A stretch of 64,000 nt of DNA, from NCBI RefSeq assembly GCF_002158865.1, contig NZ_CP021455.1:1096835-1160834 (forward strand). Reading direction: 5' to 3'. How positions within the stretch are numbered: position 1 is the stretch's first letter; every line of letters begins with the position of its first letter. Below, in pieces: positions 2,929-60,109 of the stretch. The notes beneath the pieces are model-generated. The model saw only the letters and a program-made list of their open reading frames with translations, searched no databases and had not been told where the DNA came from. Made by a program: the position numbers and the translations under genes. This stretch comes from Comamonas serinivorans (GTDB lineage: Bacteria > Pseudomonadota > Gammaproteobacteria > Burkholderiales > Burkholderiaceae_C).

Positions 2929-2980
2929 GGGGGTATGGGCGAGTTGTCGATTTTGTGTCATCGGAAATATGGCCATACCC
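2929..2980. repeat. small nested-palindromic intergenic repeat (SPR family) copy
   Basis: GGGGGTATGGG...CATCGGAAATATGGCCATACCC. Confidence 0.55.
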
Positions 2981-3122
2981 TGTAAAAAATGGGGTGAAGG
3001 CGTGCCTGGCCGCCGTCACCGGTGCAGGGCCTGGGTGTGTGCCGGGTCCGGCGGAGTCAACGCGTCACCGGCCAGGCGGCCCTGCAGCGTGTGGACCCGC
3101 GCTGCGCAACGGCGCCGCGCCC

Positions 3123-3710
3123 TCAAAACTGCACCTTGACGGGCTGCCGCTCGGCCTCGCTTTGCGTGGCCTGCAGCGCGCTGGCGGGCGTGAAGCCGGC
3201 CAGGCGCGCGACGAGCACCGTGGGCACGACCTGGCTGGCCGTGTTGAAGTCCAGCACGGCATCGTTGAACGCCTGGCGCGCAAAGCCGATGCGGTTTTCC
3301 GTGCTCGTCAGCTCTTCGCTGAGCTCGCGCATGGTCTGGTCCGCTTTCAGGTCGGGGTAGGCCTCGGACACCACCATCAGGCGCCCCAGGGCGCCCCCCA
3401 GCAGGCCATCGGCGGCGGCCAGGCCGGCCATGGCCTGGGCGTTGCCGGGTTCGCGCCGGGCCACCGCGGCGGCCGACTGCGCCTGGCCGCGGGCCGCGAT
3501 GACGGCCTGCAGCGTGTCGTGCTCGTGGCTCAGGTACTTCTTCGCCACCTCGACCAGGTTGGGCACCAGGTCGTGGCGGCGCTTGAGCTGCACGTCGATC
3601 TGGGCGAACGCATTGGCGATGCGGTTGCGCAGCTCGACCAAGCGGTTGTAGGCCATGACGGCCCAGACGATCACGCAAGCCAGCACGGCCGCTGCAATCC
3701 ACCATCCCAT
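3123..3710 (-). CDS. lemA: LemA family protein
   Basis: 195 aa. N-terminal TM helix then the LemA-conserved YNRLVELRNRIANAFAQIDVQLKRRHDLVPNLVE block. ATG confirmed at 3710 on the reverse strand. Confidence 0.8.
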   Translation of the reverse strand: MGWWIAAAVLACVIVWAVMAYNRLVELRNRIANAFAQIDVQLKRRHDLVPNLVEVAKKYLSHEHDTLQAVIAARGQAQSAAAVARREPGNAQAMAGLAAADGLLGGALGRLMVVSEAYPDLKADQTMRELSEELTSTENRIGFARQAFNDAVLDFNTASQVVPTVLVARLAGFTPASALQATQSEAERQPVKVQF

Positions 3711-3775
3711 GTCGCACCTCCTCGATGTCGCCGCACCGTGCGGCGGTTGTGTGTCGGCCTGATGAGTCAGGGTTA

Positions 3776-3800
3776 GACATAACATGACGCATATTATGTC
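3776..3800. promoter_or_regulatory. AT-rich palindrome GACATAA-N11-TTATGTC between lemA and the downstream hypothetical gene
   Basis: Only AT-rich patch in a 350-bp divergent GC-rich intergenic region. Confidence 0.3.
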
Positions 3801-4061
3801 CAGCGAGCCACGCCTGGACAAGCGATTTTCGGGGCAGCCGTCGCGGCAGCGCAGAGCGATCTGTGCGTCACCGCGCGCTCCGTTCATGGCGTCTGGGCAT
3901 CGATGCAGCCGTTTCGCGTTACACGGGTGGTGTCGCGGGCTGTGTGCGCTGCATCGCGGTGCGGCCGCATAGACGCCGTTGGCGGGGTCTGCAGCCGCTC
4001 GGGTTGACCGGAGCCGCCGCCAGGGCCGGTTAGGATGCTGCGCTTTGCACGGACCCGAACC

Positions 4062-4376
4062 ATGAGCTTTGCCGACAACCTGCGTGACCTGCCCGCCATC
4101 GACCACCTGGCCGCCCTCGAGCTGCTGGACGAGGCGGGCCAGGTGGTGGCCTCGATCCCGAACCAGCCCGGCAAGGCGGGTTCGCTCAAGCTGTATGCGG
4201 CCCTGGCCGCCCGCCACGGCGCCATCAACCTGGCCGCCGCCGAAGAAGGCCTGGCCTTGTTCGCCGAACACACCGAGGATGCGCGCCAGCACCCGGGCAG
4301 CCACCCCAACATCGACCGCCTGTTCGAGGTCATCGCCACGGGCAAGCCCCTGTCGGTGCGCCTGTTGCCGGCTTGA
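4062..4376 (+). CDS. hypothetical protein
   Basis: ORF 4035..4376 with good GC3. Internal ATG (MSFADN) chosen. No recognised domain. Confidence 0.35.
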   Translation: MSFADNLRDLPAIDHLAALELLDEAGQVVASIPNQPGKAGSLKLYAALAARHGAINLAAAEEGLALFAEHTEDARQHPGSHPNIDRLFEVIATGKPLSVRLLPA

Positions 4377-4406
4377 GGGGAGCCTCCTCGCGGTGTTTTG
4401 ATTCAA

Positions 4407-4459
4407 GGGGGTATGCGCCCATTTCCGTTTAAAGAAAAACGCAAGTGGATGCATACCCC
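4407..4459. repeat. SPR family copy
   Basis: GGGGGTATGCGCCCATTTCCGTTTAAAGAAAAACGCAAGTGGATGCATACCCC. Confidence 0.6.
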
Positions 4460-4617: not shown

Positions 4618-6603
4618 TCACTCGGGTGAGGGCGTCGGATCAGGGTGCCGCCTGCAGCCGTCAGTCGCCGGCTGCAACAGGTCTTGCACGCGTGCGCGCA
4701 TGGTCTCCAGCGTCTGCGCTTCGGGGGGCATGGCCTCGCCCACGCTCAGGCCCACCGGGCTGAAGGTCCCACGCCGGAATGGCTTGGTCATGGCGCCCGT
4801 GGGTTCGATGCGCGAGAAGTAGCTGCCCCAGAGGTTGGTCAGCGCCATGGGCACCACGGGCACGCTCAGGCCGTCGGCGCGCGCCTGCTCCAGGATCTTC
4901 AGCACCCCGCTCTTGAACGCACCCAGCTCGCCGTCGCGCGTGATGGCGCCTTCGGGGAAGATGGCCAGCAGCTCGCCTTCGCGCAGCACCTGGGCGGCTT
5001 CGACGAAGGCGCGCTCGTAGGCCGCGGGGTCGTCGCGTGCGGGGGCGATGGGGATGGCCTTGGCGAGCTTGAACAGCCAGCCCAGCACGGGCACCTTGAA
5101 GATCTGGTGGTCCATGATGAAGCGGATGGGCCGCGGGCTGGCCGCCATCAGCAGCACGGCGTCGATGAAGCTGACGTGGTTGGCGATGAGCACGGCCGGA
5201 CCGTCGGCCGGGATGTGGTCACGCCCGGTGATGCGGAAGCGGTACACCAGCTTGGTGAGCACCCAGGCGTGAAAGCGCAGCCAGTACTCGGGCACCAGGA
5301 AGAAGATGTAGGCCGCCACCAGCGCATTGGCGATGCCGGTGAACAGGAAGATCTGCGGGATGGAGAAGCCGGCCTGCAGCAGCGCGCCCGCGATCACGGC
5401 CGAGGCGATCATGAACAGCGCGTTGAGGATGTTGTTGGCCGCGATGATGCGCGCGCGGTGCGAGGGCCGGGCGCGCAGCTGGATGAGCGCGTACATGGGC
5501 ACGCTGAACAGGCCGGTGAACATCGACATCAGGCCCAGGTCGGCCATCACGCGCCAGTGCGCGCCCTGTTGCAGAAAGCCGCCCACGTCGAACAGGCCAC
5601 TGGCGGGCGGCGCGGGCAGGCTGCGCGTGGCGAAGAACAGGTCGATGGCGAACACCGTCATGCCGATGGCGCCCACGGGCACCAGCCCGATCTCGACCTG
5701 GTGGCCCGACAGCTTTTCGCACAGCAGCGCCCCCACGCCGATGCCGACCGAGAACACGGCCAGCAGCAGCGAGGCGACGTGGGCGTCGCAGTGCAGCACT
5801 TCTTTGGCAAAGGCCGGAAACTGGCTGAGGAACACAGCGCCGAAGAACCACATCCACGAGATGCCCAGCAGCGAGCGGAACACGGCCAGCTGCTCGTGCG
5901 CCAGGCGCAGGTTGCGCCAGGTTTCGGTCACAGGGTTCCAGTTCACCTGCAAGCCGGGGTCGGTGGCCGGCGACACAGGGATGAACTGCGCCGCAAGCCG
6001 CCCCAGCAGGGCCAGCACCACGCACGAGATGCCCACCCATTCGGGCCCCACCTGCGGCACCACCACCAGCACCCCGCCCACCAGCTGGCCCAGCAAGATG
6101 GCGACGAAGGTGCCCATTTCGACCATGCCGTTGCCGCCCGTCAGTTCGCGCTCGGACAGGTGCTGCGGCAGGTAGGCGAACTTCACCGGGCCGAACAGGG
6201 TGGAGTGCAGGCCCATGAGGAAGGTGCACAGCAGCAGCACCGGCACGTTGGCGCTGAAGAAGCCCCAGGCCGCCAGGGCCATGATGGCCACCTCCAGCCA
6301 TTTGACGAAGCGGATCAGCGCGCGCTTTTCCAGCTTGTCGGCCAGCTGGCCGCTGGTGGCCGAGAACACCAGATAGGGCAGGATGAACAGCGCGCCGATC
6401 ACCAGGCCCGCCATGTCGGCCGGCAGCCAGCTCACCTGCAGCATGTAGGTCACCATCACGGTGAACGCGAACTTGAAGAGGTTGTCGTTCGCGGCGCCGG
6501 CAAACTGGGTCCAAAAAAACGGCGCAAAGCGGCGCTGGCCCAGCAAGGCGAACTGCCCGGAGGGCGCTTGGCCGGCCTGGGCCTGGCGGGTCGATTCGGT
6601 CAT
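4618..6603 (-). CDS. MFS lysophospholipid transporter fused to 1-acyl-glycerol-3-phosphate (PlsC-type) acyltransferase domain
   Basis: 661 aa. N-terminal 12-TM MFS region. C-terminal HVSFIDAV...FPEGAITRDG acyltransferase motifs (HX4D, FPEG). ATG confirmed at 6603 (MTESTRQ). Confidence 0.8.
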   Translation of the reverse strand: MTESTRQAQAGQAPSGQFALLGQRRFAPFFWTQFAGAANDNLFKFAFTVMVTYMLQVSWLPADMAGLVIGALFILPYLVFSATSGQLADKLEKRALIRFVKWLEVAIMALAAWGFFSANVPVLLLCTFLMGLHSTLFGPVKFAYLPQHLSERELTGGNGMVEMGTFVAILLGQLVGGVLVVVPQVGPEWVGISCVVLALLGRLAAQFIPVSPATDPGLQVNWNPVTETWRNLRLAHEQLAVFRSLLGISWMWFFGAVFLSQFPAFAKEVLHCDAHVASLLLAVFSVGIGVGALLCEKLSGHQVEIGLVPVGAIGMTVFAIDLFFATRSLPAPPASGLFDVGGFLQQGAHWRVMADLGLMSMFTGLFSVPMYALIQLRARPSHRARIIAANNILNALFMIASAVIAGALLQAGFSIPQIFLFTGIANALVAAYIFFLVPEYWLRFHAWVLTKLVYRFRITGRDHIPADGPAVLIANHVSFIDAVLLMAASPRPIRFIMDHQIFKVPVLGWLFKLAKAIPIAPARDDPAAYERAFVEAAQVLREGELLAIFPEGAITRDGELGAFKSGVLKILEQARADGLSVPVVPMALTNLWGSYFSRIEPTGAMTKPFRRGTFSPVGLSVGEAMPPEAQTLETMRARVQDLLQPATDGCRRHPDPTPSPE

Positions 6604-6901
6604 GGGGGCTTGGGTCCTGTGACGGCCTGGGGAAATGCGAGTGTGCGGCGCAGATTGTGAAGCCATGGCCGGCCGCACGGCCAGCGCCTGGACAGGCGGC
6701 GACGCCGCCAGGCTTGGTCGGATGCGTCGTCGTCCCCATCGACGCGGCGAACAGCTACGGTGAGTGGAGAGGACCAAGAGGGCAGGCCTGGGGCATTCGC
6801 CTGAGGACAGGGCGGCCACGCCGCCTCGCAGCGTCGCCCGAGGTGCCGGACGCGCGGCGGCCGGTGGACTCGGTGGGCGGCAGCGCGAACGCGACCCGGC
6901 A

Positions 6902-7753
6902 TCAGCGCCGCCGCATGGCCCAGCCGATGGGCACCACCGCCAGCGCCGCCACCGCGTGCTTGAGGCTGTGGCCGGCCACCCAGCCCTGGGTCAGCTCGAA
7001 CACGGCGTGGTCGCCCAGCTCCAGCACCTTGGCGGCGATGTAGGCCAGCACCACCCAAAGCCAGCGCACCCCCAGGCCGTCCGGCCGGTTGGGACTCAGG
7101 CCCAGACCCACCAGCAGCGCCAAGCCGGCGCCTTGCACCAGCGCCCAGGGCGTCATGTTGCCCACCTGCCAAGCCCACAGGGCCGCGCTGGCCGAGGCCA
7201 GCAGCAGCGGCAGCGGCAGCGCGCGACCCAGGCGGGGGCTCACGCGGTCGGCCACAGCCAGGCCGATCACGCCGGCAAAGGCCAGCGACATGCCGAGCCG
7301 GTCCACGGCCAGGCCCGCATCGCCGGGCGCCCAGTGGTAGACGCTGGAGCCCGCGGCCGTGGCGATCAGGCCCAGCACCACCCATCGCACGAGCACCATG
7401 CAAGTATGGTCGGCCATTCGATCATGGATGAAGGTAGATGAACCGATACCCGATGAAAAGATGGCGGCTCGCCGCCACAGCCACAGCGCCGCCAGGACGA
7501 ACGGTGCGTTGCTGAGCACGTCCAGGGCGTGCGGCAGTGCGCCCCAGGCGCGCTGGTCGGCGAAGTCGTGGTAGCCGGCGGGCAAGGGTGCGGCGGGCAG
7601 GCCGGCGGCCAGCACCACGGCGGCCAGCAAGGCCAGCAGCACGAGCCACTCGGCGCGGCGCAAGGGACCGAGGGCAGGGTGGGCGGGTTGGACGACGCCG
7701 GCCACGCCGGTAGACGGGGACGGGCGAGCGGCGGGCGGGCGAGCGTGTGGCAT
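6902..7753 (-). CDS. integral membrane protein (ceramidase-like / unknown)
   Basis: Multiple TM helices, high GC3. Start chosen at ATG 7753 (MPHARPP). Family assignment tentative. Confidence 0.45.
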   Translation of the reverse strand: MPHARPPAARPSPSTGVAGVVQPAHPALGPLRRAEWLVLLALLAAVVLAAGLPAAPLPAGYHDFADQRAWGALPHALDVLSNAPFVLAALWLWRRAAIFSSGIGSSTFIHDRMADHTCMVLVRWVVLGLIATAAGSSVYHWAPGDAGLAVDRLGMSLAFAGVIGLAVADRVSPRLGRALPLPLLLASASAALWAWQVGNMTPWALVQGAGLALLVGLGLSPNRPDGLGVRWLWVVLAYIAAKVLELGDHAVFELTQGWVAGHSLKHAVAALAVVPIGWAMRRR

Positions 7754-7901
7754 TAGGCGCGACAAGGGGTGGACGCAGAAGTGGCCTGCACTGTGCGCAA
7801 GGCGCCGCCAACCGTCGCGTACATTGCGCCTCGGTGGCGCGGCTTCACGCTCAGGGTATCGTCGCACGCGCCCGAACCATCGACACGGAGGGAGGATTTC
7901 G

Positions 7902-8633
7902 ATGAGCACCACGCAGGACCTGGTCACCGCACTCAAACACGAACTGAAGGCCGCGCAGATGACCTATGCGGACCTGGCCAAGGAGCTCGGCATGGCCGAG
8001 TCCAGCGTCAAACGCATGCTGGCCAAAGGCGACATGCCGCTGACCCGCATCGACGCCATCTGCCGTGCGCTCAAGCTCGACTTTGCCGACCTGGCGCGCC
8101 GCGTGGCCGACGCCCAGCCCCTGCTCAGCCAGCTCACGCAGGCCCAGGAGGTGGCCGTGGTGGCGGACAAAAAGCTGCTGCTGTGCGCCATCTGCGTGCT
8201 GAGCCACTGGACGCTGGAGCAGATCTGCGAGGCCTACCGCATCGACGAGCCCGAGTGCATCCGCCACCTGGTGATGCTCGACCGCATCGGCATCATCGAG
8301 CTGCGGCCGCTGAACCGCTACCGCCTGAAGCTGGCCAAGACCTTCCGCTGGCGGCCCAACGGCCCGGTGATGGATTTCTTCCGCGAGAACGTGCTGCTGG
8401 ATTACTACGGCGGCAGCTTCGACCGCGACGACGAGGTGCTGCAGCTGGTGCACGGCACCATCGGCCACAGCATGGGGCCGGTGTTCGTCGAACGCATCCA
8501 GCGCATTGCGCAGGACTTTGCCAAGCAGCACCTGGCCGATCAGAAGCTGCCTGACGACATGCGCGAGGGCTACACCCTGCTGCTGTCCATGCGGCGCTGG
8601 GAATTCGCGGCCTTCACCGCCTTGCGGCGCTGA
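7902..8633 (+). CDS. XRE-family HTH transcriptional regulator
   Basis: N-terminal HTH (TYADLAKELGMAESSVKRMLAKG). ATG 7902 preceded by GGAGGGAGG RBS. Confidence 0.65.
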   Translation: MSTTQDLVTALKHELKAAQMTYADLAKELGMAESSVKRMLAKGDMPLTRIDAICRALKLDFADLARRVADAQPLLSQLTQAQEVAVVADKKLLLCAICVLSHWTLEQICEAYRIDEPECIRHLVMLDRIGIIELRPLNRYRLKLAKTFRWRPNGPVMDFFRENVLLDYYGGSFDRDDEVLQLVHGTIGHSMGPVFVERIQRIAQDFAKQHLADQKLPDDMREGYTLLLSMRRWEFAAFTALRR

Positions 8634-8770: not shown

Positions 8771-8824
8771 GCAGTATGGGGCGGTCTCCGGTGCAAAGAA
8801 AACGACAGTTGGCGAATACGGGGC
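8771..8824. repeat. SPR family copy (divergent)
   Basis: GCAGTATGGGGCGGTCTCCGGTGCAAAGAAAACGACAGTTGGCGAATACGGGGC. Confidence 0.45.
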
Positions 8825-10220: not shown

Positions 10221-10272
10221 GCAGTATGCATGGCTTGCCGTTTGAAGATGAACGGCAATGGCTGCATACTGC
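10221..10272. repeat. SPR family copy
   Basis: GCAGTATGCATGGCTTGCCGTTTGAAGATGAACGGCAATGGCTGCATACTGC. Confidence 0.6.
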
Positions 10273-10896: not shown

Positions 10897-11023
10897 CGCC
10901 GAGCCTTGTTCACGGCCAACGCCGCGGCGTTGGGGCATGGCGCGGCCTGCTGAGGCAGCTCAGCGCCTGCAGCCCCATCACCACGTGCGTGCGACATTCC
11001 ATGAACCCCAAGGAGACACGGAC

Positions 11024-11437
11024 ATGAGCGACATCCATTACCAGGCCGTGCTGCCCGAGGGCTGGCAGCGCCCGCGCGGTTTTTCGCATGGCGTGGTGGC
11101 CCAGGGCAGCAAGCTGCTGCGCATCGCGGGGCAGATCGGCAGCAAGCCGGACGCGCACGGCGTGGAAGCGGGGCTGGATTTCGGCCAGCAGTGGGAGCGC
11201 GCGCTGGGGAATGTGGTGGCCGTGGTGCGCGCCGCTGGCGGCAGCGCGAGCCACCTGGTGGCGCTGCGCGTCTACGTCACCCGCATGGACGACTTTCGCG
11301 AGCACGGCGCCGCGATCGGCGCGGCCTGGTCCACGCACCTGGGCAAGCACTTTCCGGCCATGACGCTGGTGCAGGTGGCGGGCTTGCTCGATGCCCACGC
11401 CACGGTGGAGATCGAAGCCGAGGCCGTGCTGGCCTGA
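11024..11437 (+). CDS. ridA: RidA/YjgF family enamine/imine deaminase
   Basis: 137 aa with conserved YjgF-family blocks (VYVTRMDDF, TLVQVAGL). RBS AGGAG at 11011. Confidence 0.8.
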   Translation: MSDIHYQAVLPEGWQRPRGFSHGVVAQGSKLLRIAGQIGSKPDAHGVEAGLDFGQQWERALGNVVAVVRAAGGSASHLVALRVYVTRMDDFREHGAAIGAAWSTHLGKHFPAMTLVQVAGLLDAHATVEIEAEAVLA

Positions 11438-11929: not shown

Positions 11930-12991
11930 TCAGACAGGGGTGCCTGGCGGCCGCTCGCCCTGGCCGTGTGCAGCCTGGGTTGGCGGGATGTGCTGGGCAT
12001 CGGCGGGGGAGTTTGCGCCAGTTTCCGATGATGTTTCGGGTTCATTGACGTAATACTGCTGGCCGCCACCCGACTCGTAGTAAATGCGTGTGAGCAGCTC
12101 GCCAATCAGGCCGGCGGCGACGAAGGTGATGCCCATCAGCACCAGCATCACGCCGACGATGAGCAGCGGGCGCCCGCCGATGTCGTGACCGAACAGCTTG
12201 AGGAGGAACAGCCAGGCCAGGATGAGGAAACCCGGCGTGGCCAGCCACAGGCCCACGCCCCCGAAGGCGTGCAGCGGGCGCTGGCGGTAGCGCATCAGGA
12301 AGACCATGAGGATCAGGTCCAGGATGACGCGGAAGGTGCGGTCGATGCCGTACTTGGACACGCCGCGTGTGCGGGCGTGGTGGCGCACGGGCACCTCGGT
12401 GATGCGGGCGCCGGCATCGCGCGCCAGCGATGGGATGAAGCGGTGCAGTTCGCCATAAAGGTGGATGCGGTCGATGATGTGCCGCCGGTAGGCCTTGAGC
12501 GCGCAGCCATAGTCGTGCAGCTGCACGCCGGTGGCCTGGGAGATCAGGCGGTTGGCGATTTTGGACGGCAGCTTGCGCGAGAGCGCCGCGTCCTGCCGGT
12601 CCTTGCGCCAGCCCGAGACCATGTCCACGTCGGGATCGGTCTCGAGCCGGTTCAGCAGCAGCGGGATGTCGTCGGGCTCGTTCTGCAGGTCGGCATCCAG
12701 CGTGACCACGTAGCGGCCGCGCACGCGGTCGAAGCCCGCCTGCAGGCCGCTGGACTGGCCGTAGTTGCGGGCCAGCAGCACGGGGCGCAGCCAGGGCCGC
12801 GTGCGGGCCAGCTCGAGCAGCAGCTTGCCGCTGCCGTCGCGGGAGCCGTCGTCCACGGCAATCAGCTCGAACGACAGCGGCTGGCTGCGCATGGCGGCCT
12901 CGATGCGCGTGACCAGGTCGGGCAGGTTGTCCACCTCGTTGTAGATGGGGACGACGATGGAGACCTCAGGGGGTGTGGAAATGGGCTGCAT
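11930..12991 (-). CDS. GT2 family polyprenyl-phosphate glycosyltransferase (ArnC/RgtE-like)
   Basis: VSIVVPIYNE...AVDDGSRD...TLDADLQNEPD motifs of ArnC/DPM-synthase-like GT2 enzymes plus two C-terminal TM helices. Start coordinate uncertain by 1 nt. Confidence 0.8.
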   Translation of the reverse strand: MQPISTPPEVSIVVPIYNEVDNLPDLVTRIEAAMRSQPLSFELIAVDDGSRDGSGKLLLELARTRPWLRPVLLARNYGQSSGLQAGFDRVRGRYVVTLDADLQNEPDDIPLLLNRLETDPDVDMVSGWRKDRQDAALSRKLPSKIANRLISQATGVQLHDYGCALKAYRRHIIDRIHLYGELHRFIPSLARDAGARITEVPVRHHARTRGVSKYGIDRTFRVILDLILMVFLMRYRQRPLHAFGGVGLWLATPGFLILAWLFLLKLFGHDIGGRPLLIVGVMLVLMGITFVAAGLIGELLTRIYYESGGGQQYYVNEPETSSETGANSPADAQHIPPTQAAHGQGERPPGTPV

Positions 12992-17143: not shown

Positions 17144-17196
17144 CAGTATGGGTTGGTTGCCGTTGATGAAAAAACGGCAATGAGCTTATACCCCCA
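17144..17196. repeat. SPR family copy
   Basis: CAGTATGGGTTGGTTGCCGTTGATGAAAAAACGGCAATGAGCTTATACCCCC. Confidence 0.55.
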
Positions 17197-18518: not shown

Positions 18519-19406
18519 TCAGCGCCCGAAGGCGAACACGGCCGGGTCGTGCTTGCTGGGCAGGGCCACGGCATTCGCCTCGGCGTTCGCCCCGCTGGCG
18601 CGCAGCCAGCTGCGCCACTGGCTCACGCTGCCGCTGCGCGTGTGGCCGCCCGGCAGGGTCAGGCCCCAGCTCAGCGACAGCCGCGTGTTGGGCTGCAAGC
18701 CTTGCACCAGCGCCTGCAGCAGCGCGGCGTTGCGGAACGGGGTTTCGATGGCGATCTGCGTTTGCCCGGTTTTGAGCGCGTGCGCCTCCAGCTGCTTGAT
18801 GCGCGTGCTGCGTTGGCTGGCGTCCTGCGGCAGGTAGCCGATGAAGGCAAAGCTCTGCCCGTTCAGGCCGCTGGCGGCCAGCGCCAGCAGCAGCGACACC
18901 GGGCCGGGCAGGACGACCACGGGCACGCCCAGGGCATGTGCGGCCCGCACCACGGCGCTGCCGGGGTCGGCAATCGCGGGCATGCCGGCCTCGCTGATCA
19001 GGCCCACGTCCAGGCCTTGCTGGGTGGGGGCCAGCCAGGCGCGGGCCGCGGCCTCGGTCTGGCGGCCGGCCTCGTGGGTGCCGTCGTGGTCGCCCTGCTT
19101 GTGCGCGGCGCGCGGCAGTTCGCTGATCTGCATCTGCTGCAGCGGCACGGCCAGCGGGCAGACCTCGCCGATGCGTTTGAGCACGGCCCGGGCCGTCTTG
19201 GCGTTTTCGCACACCCAGTGCGTGATCTGCGAGGCGGTGTGCAGCACGCCGTGGGGCAGCACCTCGGTGATGGGCACACCCGCTTCGCAGCCGAAGTCCA
19301 GCGGCGCCGGCACCAGCACCAGGCGCCCCGGCGCACGCGGGCTTGGTTGCTCGCTGGGGGATGAAGAAACTTCGGCAGTATCGGGATTTTCCGTTGAGTG
19401 CGTCAT
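18519..19406 (-). CDS. SAM-dependent tetrapyrrole-methylase-family methyltransferase (RsmI-like)
   Basis: GLISEAGMPAIADPG and VVVLPGPVSLLLALAASG blocks typical of the TP_methylase/RsmI family. ATG confirmed at 19406. Long antisense/overlapping ORFs in the track rejected. Confidence 0.6.
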   Translation of the reverse strand: MTHSTENPDTAEVSSSPSEQPSPRAPGRLVLVPAPLDFGCEAGVPITEVLPHGVLHTASQITHWVCENAKTARAVLKRIGEVCPLAVPLQQMQISELPRAAHKQGDHDGTHEAGRQTEAAARAWLAPTQQGLDVGLISEAGMPAIADPGSAVVRAAHALGVPVVVLPGPVSLLLALAASGLNGQSFAFIGYLPQDASQRSTRIKQLEAHALKTGQTQIAIETPFRNAALLQALVQGLQPNTRLSLSWGLTLPGGHTRSGSVSQWRSWLRASGANAEANAVALPSKHDPAVFAFGR

Positions 19407-19426
19407 CGGTAATGCTAGATACTGGG

Positions 19427-20870: not shown

Positions 20871-20924
20871 CCAGTATGGGGTGTTGACCGATCTGAAATT
20901 GATCGACGACGGCTGATACCTCGG
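20871..20924. repeat. SPR family copy (degenerate)
   Basis: CCAGTATGGGGTGTTGACCGATCTGAAATTGATCGACGACGGCTGATACCTCGG. Confidence 0.4.
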
Positions 20925-23613: not shown

Positions 23614-23667
23614 GGTAGTACGGGTCAATTCCCGTTGAAAATATAACGATAATGGATGCATACCCCT
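23614..23667. repeat. SPR family copy
   Basis: GGGTAGTACGGGTCAATTCCCGTTGAAAATATAACGATAATGGATGCATACCCC. Confidence 0.55.
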
Positions 23668-25444: not shown

Positions 25445-25497
25445 GAGGTATGAGGCTGTGTCCGTTTCAAGGTAAACGGACAGATGGTCATACTCGG
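25445..25497. repeat. SPR family copy
   Basis: GAGGTATGAGGCTGTGTCCGTTTCAAGGTAAACGGACAGATGGTCATACTCGG. Confidence 0.6.
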
Positions 25498-27883: not shown

Positions 27884-30652
<2,769 letters not shown>

Positions 30653-30657: not shown

Positions 30658-30712
30658 GGAGTATGGAGTGTTTATCGATGATTCTTCATCGGAAATGGCT
30701 GCATACTCCATG
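30658..30712. repeat. SPR family copy
   Basis: GGAGTATGGAGTGTTTATCGATGATTCTTCATCGGAAATGGCTGCATACTCCATG. Confidence 0.6.
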
Positions 30713-32609: not shown

Positions 32610-32659
32610 GGGTATGGCCGTGTCGTCATTGATGATCAGTCGCAAAAATTGCCATACCC
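32610..32659. repeat. SPR family copy (in 5' leader of SPFH gene)
   Basis: GGGTATGGCCGTGTCGTCATTGATGATCAGTCGCAAAAATTGCCATACCC. Confidence 0.55.
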
Positions 32660-34966: not shown

Positions 34967-35019
34967 GGGGTATGGTGTGAATGCCGTTTTCCATGAAACG
35001 GAAATGGCCTGATACTGCC
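34967..35019. repeat. SPR family copy (2 nt after rtcR stop)
   Basis: GGGGTATGGTGTGAATGCCGTTTTCCATGAAACGGAAATGGCCTGATACTGCC. Confidence 0.6.
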
Positions 35020-39710: not shown

Positions 39711-40454
39711 ATGCCTTTACGCATCGACGAAGCCATCACCCAGCTGGATCACGGCTGGCTCAGCCATTTGAAATCGCAGGGTTACGGCGGCGATGCCTTG
39801 CGCCAGGCGATCGACCTGGTGCTGTACGCCCAACAGCAGGCGGCGGCGCGCAACAGCGCCGAGTTCAAGGCCGCCATCGCGCGCGTCAACCACCTGGTGG
39901 GGGCGGGCATCGCGTGTGACAACAACGGCGACTACCTGTACACGGCCGAGTGGCGCGACCCGGCTTGCGCCGGGCTGGGCTTCGCCATCGAATACGCGGC
40001 CGACCCGGCCAGCTGGCGGGCCGAGTTCCGCATGCCCGGCTGCTGGCCGCACACCGTGGACAACCTCGACATCACCGACACCCGCGCTGTGGACCACGAC
40101 TTTGCGCTCTGGCTGGCGCGCGCCAGTGCCCGCCATTTCACGCACCTGATCGAACGCCAGCTGCCCGAAGGCGAAGCACTGCGCGCGCCCTGTACGGCGG
40201 CCGTGCGGGCCGGCACCTGGGCCGAATTCGTGTGCCTGCACCCACTGCAACCCGTGGCCCGCCTGGGGCACGAGCGGCTGGAGCAGGCCGCCTGGTCGGC
40301 CCAATACCCCAGTGCCGCCCAGCGCGAGTTGCAGGCCCGCTTCGATGTGCAGAGCGCCTTGCTGCTGCGCTTGATCGTGGTTCAGCAGGCAGCATGGGCT
40401 TGGCATGAAGAGTATGGCGACAATCGCGATGACGATTCAACGGGAAGGCATTGA
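39711..40454 (+). CDS. hypothetical protein (248 aa)
   Basis: Good GC3. C-terminus and stop are supplied by an inserted palindromic repeat unit. Confidence 0.45.
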   Translation: MPLRIDEAITQLDHGWLSHLKSQGYGGDALRQAIDLVLYAQQQAAARNSAEFKAAIARVNHLVGAGIACDNNGDYLYTAEWRDPACAGLGFAIEYAADPASWRAEFRMPGCWPHTVDNLDITDTRAVDHDFALWLARASARHFTHLIERQLPEGEALRAPCTAAVRAGTWAEFVCLHPLQPVARLGHERLEQAAWSAQYPSAAQRELQARFDVQSALLLRLIVVQQAAWAWHEEYGDNRDDDSTGRH

Positions 40455-40462
40455 TACTCCAT
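40408..40462. repeat. SPR family copy (overlaps 3' end of the 248-aa ORF)
   Basis: GAAGAGTATGGCGACAATCGCGATGACGATTCAACGGGAAGGCATTGATACTCCAT. Confidence 0.55.
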
Positions 40463-40950: not shown

Positions 40951-40987
40951 ACGAGGATGGCCACACACAACTCAACTGGGAGCACAC

Positions 40988-42193: not shown

Positions 42194-42365
42194 GTCCCGC
42201 GCGCCAGTCGGGGCACTGAGGCGGGCTGGCGGGGCCCCTGGCCTCGCCGGCCGGGCCCATGCCATCCCGCGCAAGGCCCGCCGGCGCCGAGGTGCCCGGC
42301 GCCGCGCAACGGACGATGCGCGGAGCTAGGGCCGGGGTGAGCGGGATGGGCGACAATCGCGCGCC

Positions 42366-43385: not shown

Positions 43386-43440
43386 GACGGGGTATTGGGT
43401 CAGCCCCGTTCATATATCAACGGCGAGTAAGCCATACCCC
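43386..43440. repeat. SPR family copy
   Basis: GACGGGGTATTGGGTCAGCCCCGTTCATATATCAACGGCGAGTAAGCCATACCCC. Confidence 0.55.
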
Positions 43441-46986: not shown

Positions 46987-47039
46987 CCAGTATGGGTTGA
47001 TTGTCGTTGTTCAAAAAACGGAAATGGCCGCATACTGGG
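46987..47039. repeat. SPR family copy (with a partial upstream duplication GTGTATGGCTTTAGG)
   Basis: CCAGTATGGGTTGATTGTCGTTGTTCAAAAAACGGAAATGGCCGCATACTGGG. Confidence 0.6.
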
Positions 47040-49251: not shown

Positions 49252-49305
49252 GCCAGTATGGGGAAGATGCCGTTGTTAAAAAAACGGGAGGGGCTAGATA
49301 CTGCC
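49252..49305. repeat. SPR family copy
   Basis: GCCAGTATGGGGAAGATGCCGTTGTTAAAAAAACGGGAGGGGCTAGATACTGCC. Confidence 0.6.
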
Positions 49306-54052: not shown

Positions 54053-54108
54053 GGATGAGTATCAGCCCATTGCCGTTCATCAACAAACGGTGATGGGGTG
54101 ATACGGTC
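54053..54108. repeat. SPR family copy
   Basis: GGATGAGTATCAGCCCATTGCCGTTCATCAACAAACGGTGATGGGGTGATACGGTC. Confidence 0.55.
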
Positions 54109-55706: not shown

Positions 55707-55760
55707 TGAGTATGGCCTCATTCCCGTTGTTCATTGAACGGGAACGAGGCCATACTCATG
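55707..55760. repeat. SPR family copy (near-perfect 54-bp palindrome)
   Basis: GTGAGTATGGCCTCATTCCCGTTGTTCATTGAACGGGAACGAGGCCATACTCATG. Confidence 0.65.
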
Positions 55761-57044: not shown

Positions 57045-57232
57045 GGGCAGGTGGCGTGGCGTCGGCCGGTGCAAGGCTGCGTGGCCGGTGAACCCGCGAT
57101 TGTCGCCGCAACGGCGCCAGGGGGCGCCGTGCGGGTGTGTCATTGAGGCGATGCAACAGGCGCCGGTGGCCTGCAGGCCATGGGCGGCATCGGCGGCCTT
57201 GCGCCGTGCGGGCTTGCCTGGGTGTCAGCCCC

Positions 57233-58801
57233 TTATCCGTTGTCGTCGCCGCCCTCGGGCAGGCGCTCGATCCGCACGGTCTTGATGCGCTGGGGATCCA
57301 CCTCGTCCACCGTGAACGCGTAGCCCTGGTGAACCGTGCTGGCGCCGCGCGCGGGCAGCTCACCAAACACGCGCAGCAGGTAGCCGGCCAGCGAATAGGC
57401 CTCGCTGCCCTGCACCAGGCCGTCCACGCCGAGGGTGCTTTCCAGCTGGTGCAGGTCAGCCGTGCCGGCCACGCGCCAGCGCCCGTCGCCGGCCGGCTGG
57501 ATCTCCAGCTGTTCGTCCTCGTCGGGGAATTCGCCGGCAATCGCTTCCAGCACGTCGATGGGGGTGACGATGCCCTTGAGGGTGCCGTCCTCGTCGTTGA
57601 CCAGCACCAGTTGGCCCTTGGCGCTTCGCAACACGCCGATCACGTCGATGACCAGCATGGATTCGGGCACGAACACGGGCTGGCGCAGGTAGCCGTTGGG
57701 CTCCAGCCGGCCCCTCTCTTCGATGGCGCCGAGCAGGTCCTTGGCGCGGGCCACGCCCAGCACCTGGTCCAGCGAGCCCTGGCACACCGGGTACATGCCG
57801 TGCGGCGCGGCCAGCAGCTTGCGTCGGTTCACGGCGCCATCGTCATCGACGTCCACCCACGAGATGTTGGAGCGCAAGGTCATGATGGAGCGCACGTTGC
57901 GCTCGGCCAGGCGCAGCACGCCGCCCACCATGTGGCGCTCTTCGGCCGCGAAGGCCGGTTCCGGGGCATCCGGCTCGGCTCCGCCACCCGCGGTGGCCGC
58001 CTGGGTGGCCTGCGCCGTCGTGCGGTGCCCCAACAGGCTCAGCACGCGCTCGGCCGTGCGTTGGCGCAGTGGCAGGCGCGCCTCGTGCTTGGCCGCGTTG
58101 CGGTTGGCCAGCTGGTTGAAGAACTCGATCAGGATGGAGAAACCGATCGCCGCGTACAGGTAGCCCTTGGGCAGGTGGAAGCCCAGGCCCTCGGCCACCA
58201 GCGACAAGCCGATCATGAGCAGGAAGCTCAGGCACAGCACGACGACGGTGGGGTGCGCGTTGACGAAGCGCGTGAGCGGCTTGGAGGCCAGCAGCATCAC
58301 GCCGATGGAGATGACCACGGCGGCCATCATCACGGGCAGCTGGTCCACCATGCCGACGGCGGTGATCACGGCGTCGAGCGAGAACACCGCGTCGAGCACC
58401 ACGATCTGCGCCACCACGAGCGAGAAGCTCGAGTAGGCGACTGTGGCGGTGGCCTGGTGCTGCACGCCTTCCAGCCGCTCGTGCAACTCCGAGGTGGCCT
58501 TGAACAGCAGGAACAGGCCGCCAAAGAGCAGGATCAGGTCGCGTCCCGAGAACGGATGGCCGAACACGTGGAACAGCGGTGACGTGAGCGTCACCAGCCA
58601 GGAGATCACCGACAGCAGGCCCAGGCGCATGATCAGCGCGAGGCTCAGTCCGATCACGCGGGCGCGGTCACGCTGGTGCGGCGGCAGCTTCTCGGCCAGG
58701 ATGGCGATGAAGATCAGGTTGTCGATGCCCAGGACGATTTCCAGGACGACGAGCGTGGCCAGGCCGACCCAGACGGCCGGGTCGGTCAGTAATTCAAGCA
58801 T
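57233..58801 (-). CDS. TerC-family membrane protein with CBS pair and CorC/HlyC C-terminal domain
   Basis: N-terminal TerC TM region ([16 protein letters not shown]). C-terminal CBS plus transporter-associated domain. Confidence 0.85.
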
Positions 58802-59112
58802 GGTGGGGATGGGTTAGGCGCGAGACCGGCCAGGCCGGCAAGGGCTGCCGGCAGCGGTGCGCACAAGAAGATGGGGGACGACCAGCACGGGATGCTGGCG
58901 GGTGGTGTCGAGCAAGGCCGTCGACTGGGGGGCTCGGCGTCGCTTGACGCAGAAGGAGAGTCCATGCGCAAAATTTTATCGGGGCCTCGAATGTCCCCGA
59001 GAGGCCCGGGCCGAAGGGGGCTTTAGCGGGCCGCCGAAGGCTGGTGCCATCGACCGGATGTCCGACAGGCATGGTCGGTCCTTCTATGCTTGGCCGTTTG
59101 AGCGGATCTCGC

Positions 59113-59703
59113 ATGCACCTTTTTCCACCGGCACACCCCTTGCTCACGCCGCGGCTGCAACTGCGGCGTTTTCGCGACACCGACTTCGCCGCGTATGCCG
59201 CCTACCACGGTGACCCGCAGGTGTACCGCTTTCTGTACCAGGCCGCACCCGAGGCCGACCGGCTGGGAACGCAGTTCGCCGAGGTGTTGCGCGCACCGTT
59301 CGACGGCGATGGGCACGCCTTGCGCCTGGCGGCCGTGCGCCAGGCCGATGAGGCCGTTGTCGGTGAGGTGCTGCTCAAGATCGCCAGCCTCGCGGCCTTG
59401 CAGCTGGAGGTGGGCTACATCTTCAACCCGCGCTTTGGCGGCCAGGGCTATGCGACTGAGGCGGTGCGCGCCCTGCTGAATTGGGGCTTCGAGGGCATGG
59501 GCGCCCACCGGATCTTTGCGCGGCTGGATGCGCTCAACACGGCCTCTGTCAAGGTGGTGGAGCGCCTGGGCATGCGCCGGGAAGCCCACTTGATCCAGAA
59601 CGACCGGTTCAACGGTGTCTGGGGAGACGAGTACATCCATGCGTTGTTGCGGTCCGAGTGGCCGCAGGTGGCTGTGTGCCCTGGCCAGGGCCCAGCAGGA
59701 TGA
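59113..59703 (+). CDS. GNAT family N-acetyltransferase (RimJ/RimL-like)
   Basis: Acetyl-CoA binding motif region (RFGGQGYATEAVRALLNWGF). Confidence 0.7.
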   Translation: MHLFPPAHPLLTPRLQLRRFRDTDFAAYAAYHGDPQVYRFLYQAAPEADRLGTQFAEVLRAPFDGDGHALRLAAVRQADEAVVGEVLLKIASLAALQLEVGYIFNPRFGGQGYATEAVRALLNWGFEGMGAHRIFARLDALNTASVKVVERLGMRREAHLIQNDRFNGVWGDEYIHALLRSEWPQVAVCPGQGPAG

Positions 59704-60055
59704 GGTGTTCGGCCTGGGGCAGGCCAGATGCCGGTCGAGCGACCCGGCCTCGGTCCCGATGATGGGGTGGCGAGGCATCGCAGCGCCATCTTGGGTGACT
59801 ACGCGATGGCATCGCCCATGGCGAACACCCTCTGCATGACGTGGGCGGCCACGGGTGTGAGGCTGCGTCTTGCCTGCGCGACCTGGCCGGGGGTCTGCTG
59901 ATGGATGCCATCGGCGTCGTGGCCTTCGCGCCGGTGCTGCTGGCGCGGCGCTGCTGGGCGTGGCCCTGCTGCTGCAACGCAGATCGCCCGCTCACCCGGC
60001 GCTGCAAGCCTGCTGGGCCGTTGTCCAGCCATCCACATCGCAGTGCAATTCTTGT

Positions 60056-60109
60056 GCAGTATGGGTCAACTTCCGTTTGATTGACATCGGATATGCGGGT
60101 ATACCCATG
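60056..60109. repeat. SPR family copy
   Basis: GCAGTATGGGTCAACTTCCGTTTGATTGACATCGGATATGCGGGTATACCCATG. Confidence 0.55.

What the first reader, a model, noticed from the sequence alone, without database searches (positions are those of the whole stretch)
2929..60109. Abundant family of 52-58 bp nested-palindromic intergenic repeats (at least 18 copies in 64 kb)
Eighteen copies were found, at about 2929, 4407, 8771, 10221, 17144, 20871, 23614, 25445, 30658, 32610, 34967, 40408, 43386, 46987, 49252, 54053, 55707 and 60056. All are intergenic, often within a few nt of a stop codon. One supplies the stop of the 248-aa ORF. They share the architecture (G/C)(A/G)GTATGG - about 8-12 nt - CCGTT - 6-12 nt loop - AACGG - about 5-10 nt - (C)CATAC(T/C)(C/G). 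The termini are inverted repeats of each other and the CCGTT/AACGG pair forms an internal hairpin. The copy at 55707 is a near-perfect 54-bp palindrome. One copy per 3.5 kb implies on the order of a thousand copies genome-wide, comparable to REP/BIME, ERIC or Neisseria Correia-type elements. I do not recognise it as a named family. Copies could act as transcript-stabilising hairpins or terminators, or be a MITE mobilised by a transposase encoded elsewhere.
Basis: seen in the sequence. Interest (0 to 1): 0.72.

Follow-up and report, generated by a model that had tools for sequence, protein, structure and literature searches.

The report
Replication-oriented 50-bp palindromic intergenic repeat family
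A Comamonas serinivorans chromosome segment carries about 20 copies of a rigid 50-bp near-palindrome between its genes; it resembles the known REP repeats, but nearly all copies point the same way along the chromosome, and close relatives carry altered versions.

Summary
All 18 listed copies exist, and the scans add 542 and 19376, plus a half copy at 12009 and a degenerate one at 7402. Spacing is fixed, not variable: nAGTATG-N6-ATTGCCGTT-N8-AACGGCAAT-N6-CATACTn. GTAT-N38-ATAC occurs 20 times, against about 0.05 at other spacings.

The window is Comamonas serinivorans. The family occurs only in this species and in uncultured relatives, which keep the frame and ends but change the inner box to CCGCC or CCGCT with matching partners. 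About 1.8 Mb of other Burkholderiales has none.

Copies favour gene 3' ends: 8 of 12 convergent gaps, 11 of 30 tandem, 1 of 12 divergent. They have no T tract, no target-site duplication and no Rfam match.

Its G-rich strand is the window's + strand in 19 of 20 copies, whatever the gene direction. Polarity is reversed in relatives' contigs with opposite replication skew, including one copy between the same two genes.

Best reading (confidence 0.45): an atypical REP-like element handled as a single-strand hairpin on the lagging-strand template, probably by a trans-acting HUH-type enzyme that I could not look for. It is a new variant of a known kind. Interest is moderate.

The parts
   Evidence: Weight-matrix score 51.4. 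Covariance model 38 bits. Both arms score above 22. G-C in spacers +3.
2931..2980 (+). full copy between two minus-strand genes
   Evidence: Spacer G-C is +5 on the + strand although both neighbouring genes are on the minus strand.
4409..4458 (+). full copy in a convergent gap, just after a terminator-like hairpin at 4374-4390
   Evidence: 17 Watson-Crick pairs of 21; folding z = -7.0.
7402..7451 (.). degenerate copy in a stretch without coding periodicity, inside the 344-codon ORF 6902-7936(-)
   Evidence: Weight-matrix score 26 and 28.8 bits, but neither arm passes the half-site threshold. The frame plot shows loss of codon periodicity at 7340-7460. Doubtful.
8772..8821 (+). full copy, partly decayed, in a tandem + gap
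   Evidence: Spacer G-C +6.
10222..10271 (+). full copy, 22 nt upstream of a DsbA-like gene
   Evidence: Folding z = -6.1.
12009..12058 (.). half copy (left arm only) fused to the 3' tail of the GT2 glycosyltransferase gene; orthologous half copies exist in two relatives
   Evidence: Only the left arm scores. The right 'box' is the native codons for QYY, also present in the outgroup L160. The orthologues L158:414 and L159:6361 each carry their own genome's inner box.
17144..17193 (+). full copy between the UDP-glucose dehydrogenase and DUF4357 genes; a relative has a copy between the same two genes in the opposite polarity
   Evidence: Spacer G-C is +6 here and -7 in L159:11374, which has the same neighbours.
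19376..19424 (+). 49-nt variant with one base missing from each arm spacer, between two minus-strand genes
   Evidence: Sequence; 17.2 bits. The stop of the right-hand gene is 1 nt away. The spacers are G-rich on the + strand (+3, counted by eye from the sequence).
20872..20921 (+). full copy with a decayed right arm, in a convergent gap, 9 nt after a stop
   Evidence: Spacer G-C +7.
23616..23665 (+). full copy 3 nt after the hisD stop (GTAC instead of GTAT)
25446..25495 (+). full copy in a convergent gap
   Evidence: Spacer G-C +5.
30659..30708 (+). full copy filling the 70-nt convergent gap after metH
32610..32659 (+). decayed copy; the only one in a divergent gap (gltS / rtcR)
34968..35017 (+). 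full copy 2 nt after the rtcR stop
40410..40459 (+). full copy whose right box supplies the TGA stop of ORF 39711-40454
   Evidence: The coding frame of the ORF is confirmed by the codon-position GC profile.
43390..43439 (+). full copy in a convergent gap
46988..47037 (+). best-scoring, consensus-like copy, 13 nt upstream of an FKBP gene
   Evidence: Weight-matrix score 65.1 and 49.2 bits. Closest to the other copies at the variable columns.
49254..49303 (+). full copy in the convergent gap after rhlE
   Evidence: Spacer G-C +11.
54057..54106 (+). nearly symmetric copy in a convergent gap, nearest to the stop of a minus-strand gene
   Evidence: Folding z = -7.0.
55708..55757 (.). near-perfect palindrome 39 nt after the lysA stop
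   Evidence: 20 of 21 pairs, -35.9 kcal/mol, z = -10.3. Spacer G-C -1, so it has no polarity.
60057..60106 (+). full copy in a convergent gap, 43 nt from the stop of a minus-strand sensor kinase gene

Best explanation
The repeats are an atypical REP-like family: short, non-coding, non-autonomous elements confined to the Comamonas serinivorans lineage.

Each unit is one 50-nt imperfect hairpin, made of:
- a 6-7 bp outer stem, AGTATG/CATACT;
- a 6+6 internal region that is usually unpaired;
- an 8-9 bp inner stem, ATTGCCGTT/AACGGCAAT;
- an 8-nt A/T-rich loop.

I propose that the element is recognised and copied or maintained as folded single-stranded DNA on the lagging-strand template. The agent would be an enzyme encoded elsewhere in the genome, most likely a Y1 HUH nuclease of the RAYT / IS200-IS605 kind. 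That enzyme would read the hairpin together with the invariant GTAT/ATAC tetranucleotides.

New copies survive mainly downstream of genes, then decay everywhere except at the contact positions. Each lineage amplifies its own inner-stem variant.

Shown here: the anatomy, the abundance, the fixed frame, the gene context, the strand polarity, the inner-box variants between species, the narrow distribution, and the absence of target duplications.

Inferred: the single-stranded DNA form, mobility, and the identity of the enzyme.
For: 1. Real, abundant and rigid family.

2. Hairpin register. 67.5% of cells are paired in register, against about 40% when the register is slid. 12 of 22 copies fold at z <= -3. 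Arms almost never occur alone: 19 pairs and 1 solo arm. One copy has matching 1-nt deletions in both arms. 7 of 52 copies are fully symmetric in the otherwise unconstrained spacer (null 1.8%, P = 4e-5).

3. Between species the inner stem changes on both sides together, CCGTT/AACGG to CCGCC/GGCGG or CCGCT/AGCGG, while the outer box and the frame stay the same.

4. Polarity. Spacers are G-rich on the + strand in 18 of 19 copies plus 19376, whatever the gene direction (binomial 4e-5). Spacer skew is about +0.42, against +0.05 to +0.13 in other non-coding DNA. The + strand is the G-rich strand, with a replication component of third-codon-position skew of +0.036. Contigs of relatives with the opposite component (-0.12) carry reversed copies. 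The copy between the UGDH and DUF4357 genes is +6 in the window and -7 in L159. The G-rich strand folds better in 18 of 22 copies with RNA parameters and 14 of 19 with DNA parameters.

5. In Proteobacteria, strong replication-linked orientation bias is reported for only three IS families, IS200, IS91 and IS110. For IS200 it is explained by transposition of single-stranded DNA at the lagging strand (PMC3971601).

6. No target-site duplication, as expected for that mechanism.

7. Turnover. The lineage-specific inner boxes are one sign. A copy follows UGDH in the window and in L159 but not in L158. The family is absent from about 1.5 Mb of other Burkholderiales and from 305 kb of other Comamonadaceae.

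8. Gene-end bias typical of REPs: 8 of 12 convergent gaps against 1 of 12 divergent, Fisher P = 0.009.

9. REPs are described as 21-65 nt hairpins with a tetranucleotide at the foot. Some Y1 classes use non-GTAG feet and weak hairpins (PMC6006769). TnpA-REP needs a mismatch in the stem to bind (PMC3333891).
Against: - No Y1/HUH or any other transposase gene is in the window or in about 190 kb of family-positive DNA. The rest of the genome could not be read, so the enzyme is pure inference.
- The canonical REP tag GT[AG]G at one end is absent. Here GTAT sits at the 5' end and its complement at the 3' end.
- No two copies in the window are close relatives. Identity at variable columns is 32%, against 26% for random. 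No family word of 9-12 nt is among the commonest words in the window. So there is no sign of recent copying here.
- The near-invariance of GTAT/ATAC in old copies looks like selection at each site, which a purely selfish, decaying element would not show.
- Covariation within copies is weak: 67.5% paired against 64.0% in shuffles.
- The direction of replication is inferred from skew alone. In the relatives the reversal rests on 3 negative, 1 positive and 2 neutral copies.
- No clean filled-versus-empty site was found.
Confidence: 0.45

Rival explanations
1. A host-selected protein-binding site on double-stranded DNA. An abundant, lineage-specific DNA-binding protein (nucleoid-associated or architectural) binds as a dimer or tetramer to four boxes at fixed spacing: AGTATG-6-ATTGCCGTT-8-AACGGCAAT-6-CATACT. 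The hairpin potential is a by-product of dyad symmetry.
For: - The frame is rigid and gap-free, with nearly invariant 4-6 nt boxes, while the spacers are close to random.
- Spacer complementarity is at the null level in about 80% of copies.
- The boxes stay conserved in copies that are otherwise saturated with changes, which implies selection at each site.
- The outer boxes are 42 bp apart, which is four helical turns.
- The inner-box variants could follow a change in the protein's specificity.
Against: - A dyad-symmetric site on duplex DNA has no reason to carry a strand polarity that follows replication.
- It also has no reason to avoid divergent promoter regions, unless binding there is harmful.
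- Matching 1-nt deletions in both arms (19376) and the excess of fully symmetric copies point to arm-to-arm templating in a folded form.
- No candidate protein is known, and changing more than a thousand sites in step with a protein is hard to picture without turnover.
Confidence: 0.2
2. An RNA-level element: a 3'-end hairpin that protects upstream mRNA from exonucleases, or acts as a weak factor-dependent terminator or processing site, as shown for some REPs.
For: - Strong bias to gene ends: 8 of 12 convergent gaps, and 8 of 20 copies within 10 nt of a stop.
- Canonical T-tract terminators are scarce in the window, at the chance level, so something else must define many 3' ends.
- About half the copies fold well.
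Against: - There is no T/U tract after the hairpin.
- Polarity follows the chromosome strand, not the direction of transcription. Copies in minus-strand operons (2931, 19376) and those nearest to minus-strand gene stops (54057, 60057) have the same polarity as those in plus-strand operons.
- Many copies fold no better than shuffles.
- Sequence-specific boxes are not needed for a protective hairpin.
- Several copies lie just upstream of start codons (10222, 46988, 2931).
Confidence: 0.15
3. A miniature inverted-repeat element (MITE) made of two bipartite terminal inverted repeats back to back, moved by a DDE transposase of a full-length IS elsewhere in the genome.
For: - Each 21-nt arm has two conserved blocks about one helical turn apart, as in some transposase-binding ends.
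- The family is lineage-specific and dispersed.
Against: - No target-site duplication for any length from 2 to 9 or any boundary offset.
- At 50 bp it is far below known MITE sizes.
- No IS with such ends is in the window or in related contigs.
- No similar sequence was found in plasmids or viral contigs.
- Replication-linked polarity is not expected for most DDE families in Proteobacteria (PMC3971601).
Confidence: 0.05

Closest known systems
REP / BIME elements with their RAYT (TnpA-REP) nuclease (E. coli, Pseudomonas, Stenotrophomonas)
   Same: - Short imperfect palindrome, highly repeated and extragenic.
- Enriched downstream of genes.
- A conserved tetranucleotide at the foot of the hairpin, and a stem interrupted by mismatches.
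- Species-specific sequence variants.
- The size lies within the 21-65 nt quoted for REPs (PMC6006769, PMC3333891, PMC3733652).
   Different: - The tag is GTAT, not GT[AG]G or CGTC. It sits at both ends as a base-paired GTAT/ATAC rather than at one end.
- Copies are always single, never in BIME-like clusters.
- The frame is gap-free, with a second conserved box inside.
- Copies have a uniform polarity along the chromosome.
- Linkage to a RAYT gene is untested.
REPINs (REP doublets forming hairpins; Bertels and Rainey)
   Same: A hairpin-forming, non-autonomous unit of similar overall length, vertically inherited, with lineage-specific sequence populations (PMC3116915, PMC3337134).
   Different: - A REPIN is two REPs, each a palindrome in its own right, in inverted orientation around a spacer. 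Here the arms are not self-complementary and the unit is a single hairpin.
- REPIN populations have a master sequence and abundant exact 16-mers. This family shares no long exact word, so word-based REPIN finders would miss it.
Ends of IS200/IS605-family elements and their miniature derivatives (single-strand 'peel and paste' transposition)
   Same: No target duplication. A hairpin plus nearby tetranucleotides as the recognition unit. Orientation bias tied to the lagging-strand template (PMC3971601, PMC5027513 abstract).
   Different: Those elements have two different ends, each with its own hairpin, and carry or derive from a tnpA gene. Here one 50-nt hairpin is the whole unit, and no tnpA has been seen.
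Integron attC sites
   Same: The folded architecture matches: an outer paired box, an unpaired central spacer, an inner paired box and a variable loop. Both have a strand-specific folded form linked to replication (PMC3458562 and PMC5371416 abstracts).
   Different: - The boxes do not match RYYYAAC/GTTRRRY.
- Copies are not arrayed next to an integrase. They separate ordinary housekeeping genes in both orientations.
Neisseria Correia elements, ERIC, and the Bordetella/Comamonadaceae BRE
   Same: Dispersed intergenic repeats with inverted-repeat character in Proteobacteria.
   Different: - These are 90-155 bp.
- Correia elements have TA duplications and functional promoter and RNase III sites.
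- BRE is tandem and variable in number (PMC3110155).
- No sequence similarity, and no Rfam hit.

Membership tests
REP (RAYT-associated repetitive extragenic palindrome) | Short (about 21-65 nt) imperfect palindrome, many copies, extragenic | tested here: met
   A 50-nt frame and about 20 copies in 64 kb, all in stretches without coding periodicity.
REP (RAYT-associated repetitive extragenic palindrome) | Conserved GT[AG]G (or CGTC) tetranucleotide at one end, 5' of the hairpin foot (PMC3733652, PMC3333891, PMC6006769) | tested here: not met
   The invariant tetranucleotide is GTAT. Its complement ATAC is equally invariant at the other end and pairs with it.
REP (RAYT-associated repetitive extragenic palindrome) | A single-copy Y1 (RAYT) gene flanked by copies (REPtron) | not testable with these tools
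   None in the window or in about 190 kb of family-positive contigs.
REP (RAYT-associated repetitive extragenic palindrome) | Preference for the 3' ends of genes and convergent gaps | tested here: met
   Convergent 8 of 12, tandem 11 of 30, divergent 1 of 12; Fisher P = 0.009 (the script missed 40410, which overlaps its gene's end, so I added it to the tandem class by hand).
REPIN | Two REP units, each itself a palindrome, in inverted orientation around a spacer | tested here: not met
   The minimum-energy folds show one long hairpin. The arms do not fold on themselves.
REPIN | Sequence population with a master sequence and abundant exact 16-mers | tested here: not met
   No family word is among the commonest 9- to 12-mers of the window. 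Pairwise identity at the variable columns is 32%, against 26% for random.
MITE moved by a DDE transposase | Target-site duplication flanking the terminal inverted repeats | tested here: not met
   Flank matches are 20-30% for every length from 2 to 9 and every boundary offset, in 48 copies.
MITE moved by a DDE transposase | A full-length IS with the same ends in the genome | not testable with these tools
   None in the window. No similar sequence in plasmids or viral contigs.
Intrinsic (Rho-independent) terminator | G+C-rich stem followed directly by a T run | tested here: not met
   No copy appears among the terminator-like sites. Columns 51-58 carry no T enrichment.
Integron attC site | Outer boxes RYYYAAC / GTTRRRY, in arrays of like orientation next to intI | tested here: not met
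   The outer boxes are AGTATG/CATACT. Copies separate housekeeping genes of both orientations, and no integrase is present.
DNA uptake sequence (DUS/USS) | Short core found at high density in coding as well as non-coding DNA | tested here: not met
   Half-site and full-site scans find true copies only outside coding sequence. The two hits inside coding sequence are native codons conserved in an outgroup.
IS200/IS605-type single-strand elements | Orientation bias relative to replication, and no target duplication | tested here: met
   19 of 20 copies have one polarity in the window, and polarity is reversed on contigs with opposite skew. No duplication. The direction of replication is inferred from skew only.
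IS200/IS605-type single-strand elements | Two distinct ends, each with a subterminal hairpin, and a tnpA (Y1) gene in the autonomous members | tested here: inconclusive
   The unit is a single hairpin with symmetric ends. No tnpA was seen in the DNA available.
Any Rfam family | Match to a curated covariance model | tested here: not met
   No hit at gathering score. At E <= 5 the only hit is a chance miRNA match (25 bits against a gathering score of 100) on copy 55708.

The most novel reading that the evidence does not exclude
The copies are not decaying selfish DNA but a selected, replication-oriented chromosomal signal. Under this reading they are folded single-strand sites, exposed on the lagging-strand template about once every 3 kb. 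A lineage-specific protein reads them, and its specificity co-evolves with the inner stem, giving species 'dialects'. That would make them a structured counterpart of polar oligomers such as KOPS or Chi, or a domesticated HUH system acting in replication or repair rather than in transposition.

Three observations would fit:
- the near-invariance of the GTAT/ATAC and CG boxes in copies that are otherwise saturated with changes;
- the rigid frame;
- the polarity.
Probability: 0.15. Interest if true: 0.8.

Novelty: new variant of a known kind. Interest (0 to 1): 0.5.

Why it matters
If the reading is right, this lineage offers a compact and unusually regular example of a hairpin repeat whose orientation is set by replication. 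The whole unit is 50 nt, has two separate recognition boxes, shows a clear strand polarity, and differs between sister lineages by paired changes in one stem.

That combination makes several open questions about REP-like DNA testable:
- whether such elements are handled as single strands at the fork;
- which positions the partner enzyme reads;
- whether individual copies are under selection.

It also has a practical side. The family shares no long exact word, so word-count repeat finders and REPIN tools would miss it. It occupies roughly a third of the intergenic gaps here, which matters for annotating gene ends. At least three ORFs run into copies.

If it is merely one more REP family, it is of local interest only.

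Tried and rejected
1. Promoter. The right box plus TTG at columns 20-22 can be read as -35/-10 with an 18-nt spacer. However, G22 is present in only half the copies, the relatives have CC at 20-21, the strongest conservation (C18, G19, G3, C48) is unexplained, and copies avoid divergent gaps. Rejected.

2. Target-site duplications, including a TA-target model with AGTA|TACT as the empty site. No signal.

3. Intrinsic orientation by expectation-maximisation on weight matrices. This was unstable, with many optima of equal likelihood, so I dropped it in favour of the orientation-free G-minus-C count in the spacers.

4. Background mutational skew as the cause of polarity. Spacer skew (about +0.42) far exceeds that of other non-coding DNA (+0.05) and of the 30-nt flanks (+0.13). 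Cytosine deamination alone would raise T, not G. Not sufficient.

5. Orthologous empty sites in other genera. The 80 loci around metH share no synteny with the window. Even 87-91% relatives have different neighbours around rtcR and lysA. No clean filled/empty pair was obtained.

6. A Y1 transposase between closely spaced copies in contigs L141 and L124. By the look of their translations (not run through a family search) the ORFs there are a small cysteine-rich protein and an FMN-reductase-like protein. That is a weak test.

7. Exact-protein look-up of the window's RtcR, to fetch the rest of the genome. Not on record.

8. Plasmid and viral collections. Only chance hits, or none.

9. Hits at 14616, 15481 and L158:3856. 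They looked like copies inside genes, at up to 35 bits. Alignment with an outgroup shows native, conserved codons and no insertion. The covariance model therefore gives false positives in G+C-rich coding DNA.

10. Neisseria DUS resemblance (GCCGTTTGAA against GCCGTCTGAA, the latter recalled from memory). It is seen in only one or two copies. Coincidence.

Full report
**What the window is**

The window has about 70% G+C and a steadily positive GC skew. Its RtcR protein is 100% identical to that of Comamonas serinivorans, from a 4,522,913-bp contig (lineage).

It is ordinary chromosome. Genes identified include metH behind an SAH riboswitch, hisD, lysA, rhlE, an arn-like glycosyl-transfer operon, and rtcR/rtcA. 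No transposase is present.

**Checking the observation**

- Trimmed from two bases before GTAT to two bases after ATAC, every copy is exactly 50 nt. The set aligns without a gap.
- G3, T4, A5, C18, T21 and A45-C48 are invariant in the 18. T6, G19, C32 and G33 are nearly so.
- A strict pattern gives 6 hits against 0 in shuffles.
- A symmetrised weight matrix separates the 18 copies (scores 24-65) from simulated sequence (maximum 3.8). It also finds 542, 7402, 12009, 14616 and a 49-nt variant at 19376. A covariance model agrees.
- GTAT-N38-ATAC occurs 20 times, against 0.05 for other spacings.
- Information vanishes outside columns 0 and 51.

So the element is 50-52 bp with fixed geometry, not 52-58 bp with variable spacers.

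Codon-periodicity plots put 7402 and 12009 in non-coding-like stretches. Alignment with an outgroup (L160) shows that 14616 and 15481 are native coding sequence that merely resembles the motif.

A half-site scan finds the two arms always together, apart from one solo arm at 12009.

My count is 20 solid copies, one half copy and one degenerate copy in 64 kb.

**Anatomy**

The consensus is nAGTATG(G) - 6 nt - ATTGCCGTT - 8 nt A/T-rich - AACGGCAAT - 6 nt - CATACTn.

As a single strand it draws as an outer stem, a 6+6 internal region, an inner stem and an 8-nt loop.

- In register, 67.5% of cells pair, against about 40% when the register is slid. Shuffling partners among copies still gives 64.0%. 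Most of the pairing therefore comes from a palindromic consensus rather than from compensation within copies.
- The 6+6 spacer is complementary at only the null level in about 80% of copies. However, 7 of 52 copies are symmetric there, each with its own private sequence (null 1.8%, P = 4e-5).
- Copy 19376 has lost one base from each arm spacer.
- About half the copies fold far better than shuffles, and the rest do not.
- Variable columns are nearly saturated (32% identity against 26% for random), while the boxes are 71% identical.
- No family word of 9-12 nt is among the commonest words of the window.

**Context**

Using a gene map built from codon-position G+C and family hits:
- copies occupy 8 of 12 convergent gaps, 11 of 30 tandem gaps and 1 of 12 divergent gaps (Fisher P = 0.009 for convergent against divergent; the script missed 40410, so I added it to the tandem count by hand);
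- eight of 20 copies lie within 10 nt of a stop;
- some fill almost the whole gap (542, 17144, 30659);
- three ORFs run into a copy (40410, 12009, and possibly 7402).

No copy has a T tract. Terminator-like sites in the window are at the shuffled expectation.

**Distribution**

- Uncultured relatives from ENA metagenomes carry the same 50-nt frame and the same AGTATG/CATACT ends at a similar density. Their identities to the window are RtcR 87%, LysA 87-91% and UGDH 84-89%. Their inner box is CCGCC/GGCGG, CCGCT/AGCGG or GCGCT.
- A pattern scan of JGI metagenomes found 66 stretches. About 17 copies, most from one sample (Ga0116169), are clear members of the CCGCC type. The rest are unrelated palindromes or chance matches.
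- Eighty loci around metH from other Burkholderiales (64-84% identity, about 1.5 Mb) have essentially none.
- 305 kb of other Comamonadaceae, including contigs of the C. aquatilis and C. suwonensis kind, have none at E <= 1.
- None was found in viral contigs or plasmids, and there is no Rfam match.

The family is not confined to this window, and its structure is far beyond chance. The C. serinivorans genome itself was not scanned.

**Orthologous sites**

The arn-like operon is syntenic in the window, L158, L159 and the outgroup L160.

1. Between the UGDH and DUF4357 genes there is a copy in the window (17144) and in L159 (11374). L158 has other genes after UGDH and no copy there.
2. At the 3' end of the GT2 gene all three family-bearing genomes have a half element. 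It is fused to native codons (QYY, also present in the outgroup). The ORF tails beyond it are unrelated and longer than in the outgroup, and each half element carries its own genome's inner box.
3. Two near-identical contigs (L001 and L002, 98%) differ by a 0.7-kb indel 23 nt from a copy, and lose homology 56 nt to its other side.

**Polarity (new)**

- In the spacer columns, G exceeds C on the + strand in 18 of 19 solid copies, and also in 19376. Only the perfect palindrome 55708 is neutral (binomial 4e-5).
- This holds for copies inside minus-strand operons (2931, 19376) and for those nearest to minus-strand gene stops (54057, 60057). Polarity therefore does not follow transcription.
- Spacer skew is about +0.42 (98 G to 40 C, from the counts). 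Other non-coding DNA has +0.05 and the 30-nt flanks +0.13.
- Splitting third-codon-position skew by gene strand gives a replication component of +0.036 for the window, -0.118 for L152 and -0.121 for L159. L001 and L158 are not significantly different from zero, judged by my own rough standard errors.
- Copies on L152 and L159 score 0, -2, -4, +2 and 0, -7.
- The copy between UGDH and DUF4357 is +6 in the window and -7 in L159. When reverse-complemented, the L159 left arm matches the window's left arm at 18 of 21 positions (my count from the two sequences printed).
- The G-rich strand folds better in 18 of 22 copies with RNA parameters and in 14 of 19 with DNA parameters.

By the usual reading of skew, which is established knowledge, the G-rich strand has the leading-strand sequence. 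That is the parental strand used as the lagging-strand template.

**Interpretation**

The following fit an element handled as a single-stranded hairpin at the replication fork:
- the narrow range;
- the lineage-specific inner stem with paired changes;
- presence or absence at one operon;
- the lack of target duplications;
- the gene-end bias;
- the hairpin register;
- the replication-linked polarity.

In Proteobacteria only IS200, IS91 and IS110 show strong replication-linked orientation bias. For IS200 this is attributed to single-strand transposition at the lagging strand (PMC3971601).

REPs are 21-65 nt hairpins with a tetranucleotide at the foot. TnpA-REP needs both the tetranucleotide and a stem mismatch. 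Some Y1 classes are associated with non-GTAG, weakly folding repeats (PMC3333891, PMC6006769).

I therefore file this family as REP-like in how it probably works. It fails the membership tests for canonical REP (no GT[AG]G tag at one end), REPIN, MITE, terminator, attC and uptake sequence.

The partner enzyme is inferred, not seen.

The main rival is a selected binding site on duplex DNA. It explains the rigid frame and the box conservation in old copies better than the mobile-element reading does. It does not explain the polarity or the signs of arm-to-arm templating.

**Limits**

- Only 64 kb of the genome was available.
- Gene starts are approximate.
- The direction of replication is inferred from skew.
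- The reversal in relatives rests on few copies.
- The covariance model gives false positives in coding DNA.

Noticed in passing
window 5794-5915 (-): An Rfam Bcj11 ('Burkholderia RNA 11') match at 69 bits lies inside, and on the same strand as, the coding sequence of a lysophospholipid transporter/acyltransferase-like gene (4618-6819, minus). The 'sRNA' family may be conserved coding sequence.
   Followed up: no
window 27729-27850 (+): An SAH riboswitch (48 bits) lies directly upstream of metH (27935-30652). Copy 30659 fills the 70-nt gap after the gene.
   Followed up: partly
window 33313-43250: rtcR (33313-34965) and rtcA (41069-42193) are separated by a SIMPL-family gene, a tRNA (36068-36138), a roughly 1,000-codon ORF with no family hit (36279-39320) and a 248-aa ORF. 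This is an unusual layout for an rtc locus. Relatives have a Ro60 (TROVE) gene near rtcR instead.
   Followed up: no
window 6902-7936 (-): A 344-codon ORF with no Pfam hit has a central stretch of about 120 nt without codon periodicity. That stretch holds a terminator-like hairpin (7461-7478, minus) and the degenerate copy 7402. It may be two genes fused by loss of a stop after an insertion.
   Followed up: partly
window 10900-11930: Relatives and the outgroup have an intact LPG_synthase_TM gene downstream of GT2. The window has only two overlapping minus-strand ORFs (10910-11398 and 11272-11691) with no Pfam hit. This may be a disrupted or replaced gene.
   Followed up: partly
window 15877-15922: A palindromic stretch inside the UDP-glucose dehydrogenase gene gives weak Rfam hits to a viral frameshift element on both strands (E 0.5-0.9). 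Almost certainly chance.
   Followed up: no
window 15481-15530; L158:3856-3905: Codons for ...YDAM..PNPG.S.APYR... of the epimerase mimic the repeat (GTA-N-ATAC in register and box-like centre) and score up to 35 bits with the covariance model. An outgroup has the same codons, so this is a false positive and a warning for genome-wide scans.
   Followed up: yes
window versus L001-L005, L152-L157: Gene order around rtcR and lysA differs completely between the window and relatives at 87-91% protein identity, and gltS is inverted next to rtcR. In both genomes a copy sits between gltS and rtcR. Repeats may mark rearrangement joints, but 3 of 5 joints carrying a copy is not above expectation.
   Followed up: partly
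L001:2203-2353 versus L002:413-1270: Two 98%-identical contigs differ by a 0.7-kb indel 23 nt from a copy, and lose homology 56 nt on its other side. This is structural variation clustered at one repeat.
   Followed up: partly
window 47658-47677 (+): One textbook intrinsic terminator (8-bp G+C stem followed by TTTTT) follows the FKBP gene. It is one of very few convincing ones in 60 kb, since terminator-like sites overall are at the chance level.
   Followed up: no
L088/L103, L100/L137, L112 (JGI/ENA metagenome contigs): Other long G+C-rich palindromes from unrelated metagenomes match the search pattern (18-21 of 21 pairs) but lack the family's boxes. They may be different hairpin repeats or terminators in other organisms.
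   Followed up: no
window 17220-18149 (+); L159:11434-12369: The gene after copy 17144 encodes a GIY-YIG plus DUF4357 protein, a nuclease-like fold. It is present in L159 and absent from L158. I did not test any link between it and the repeats.
   Followed up: no
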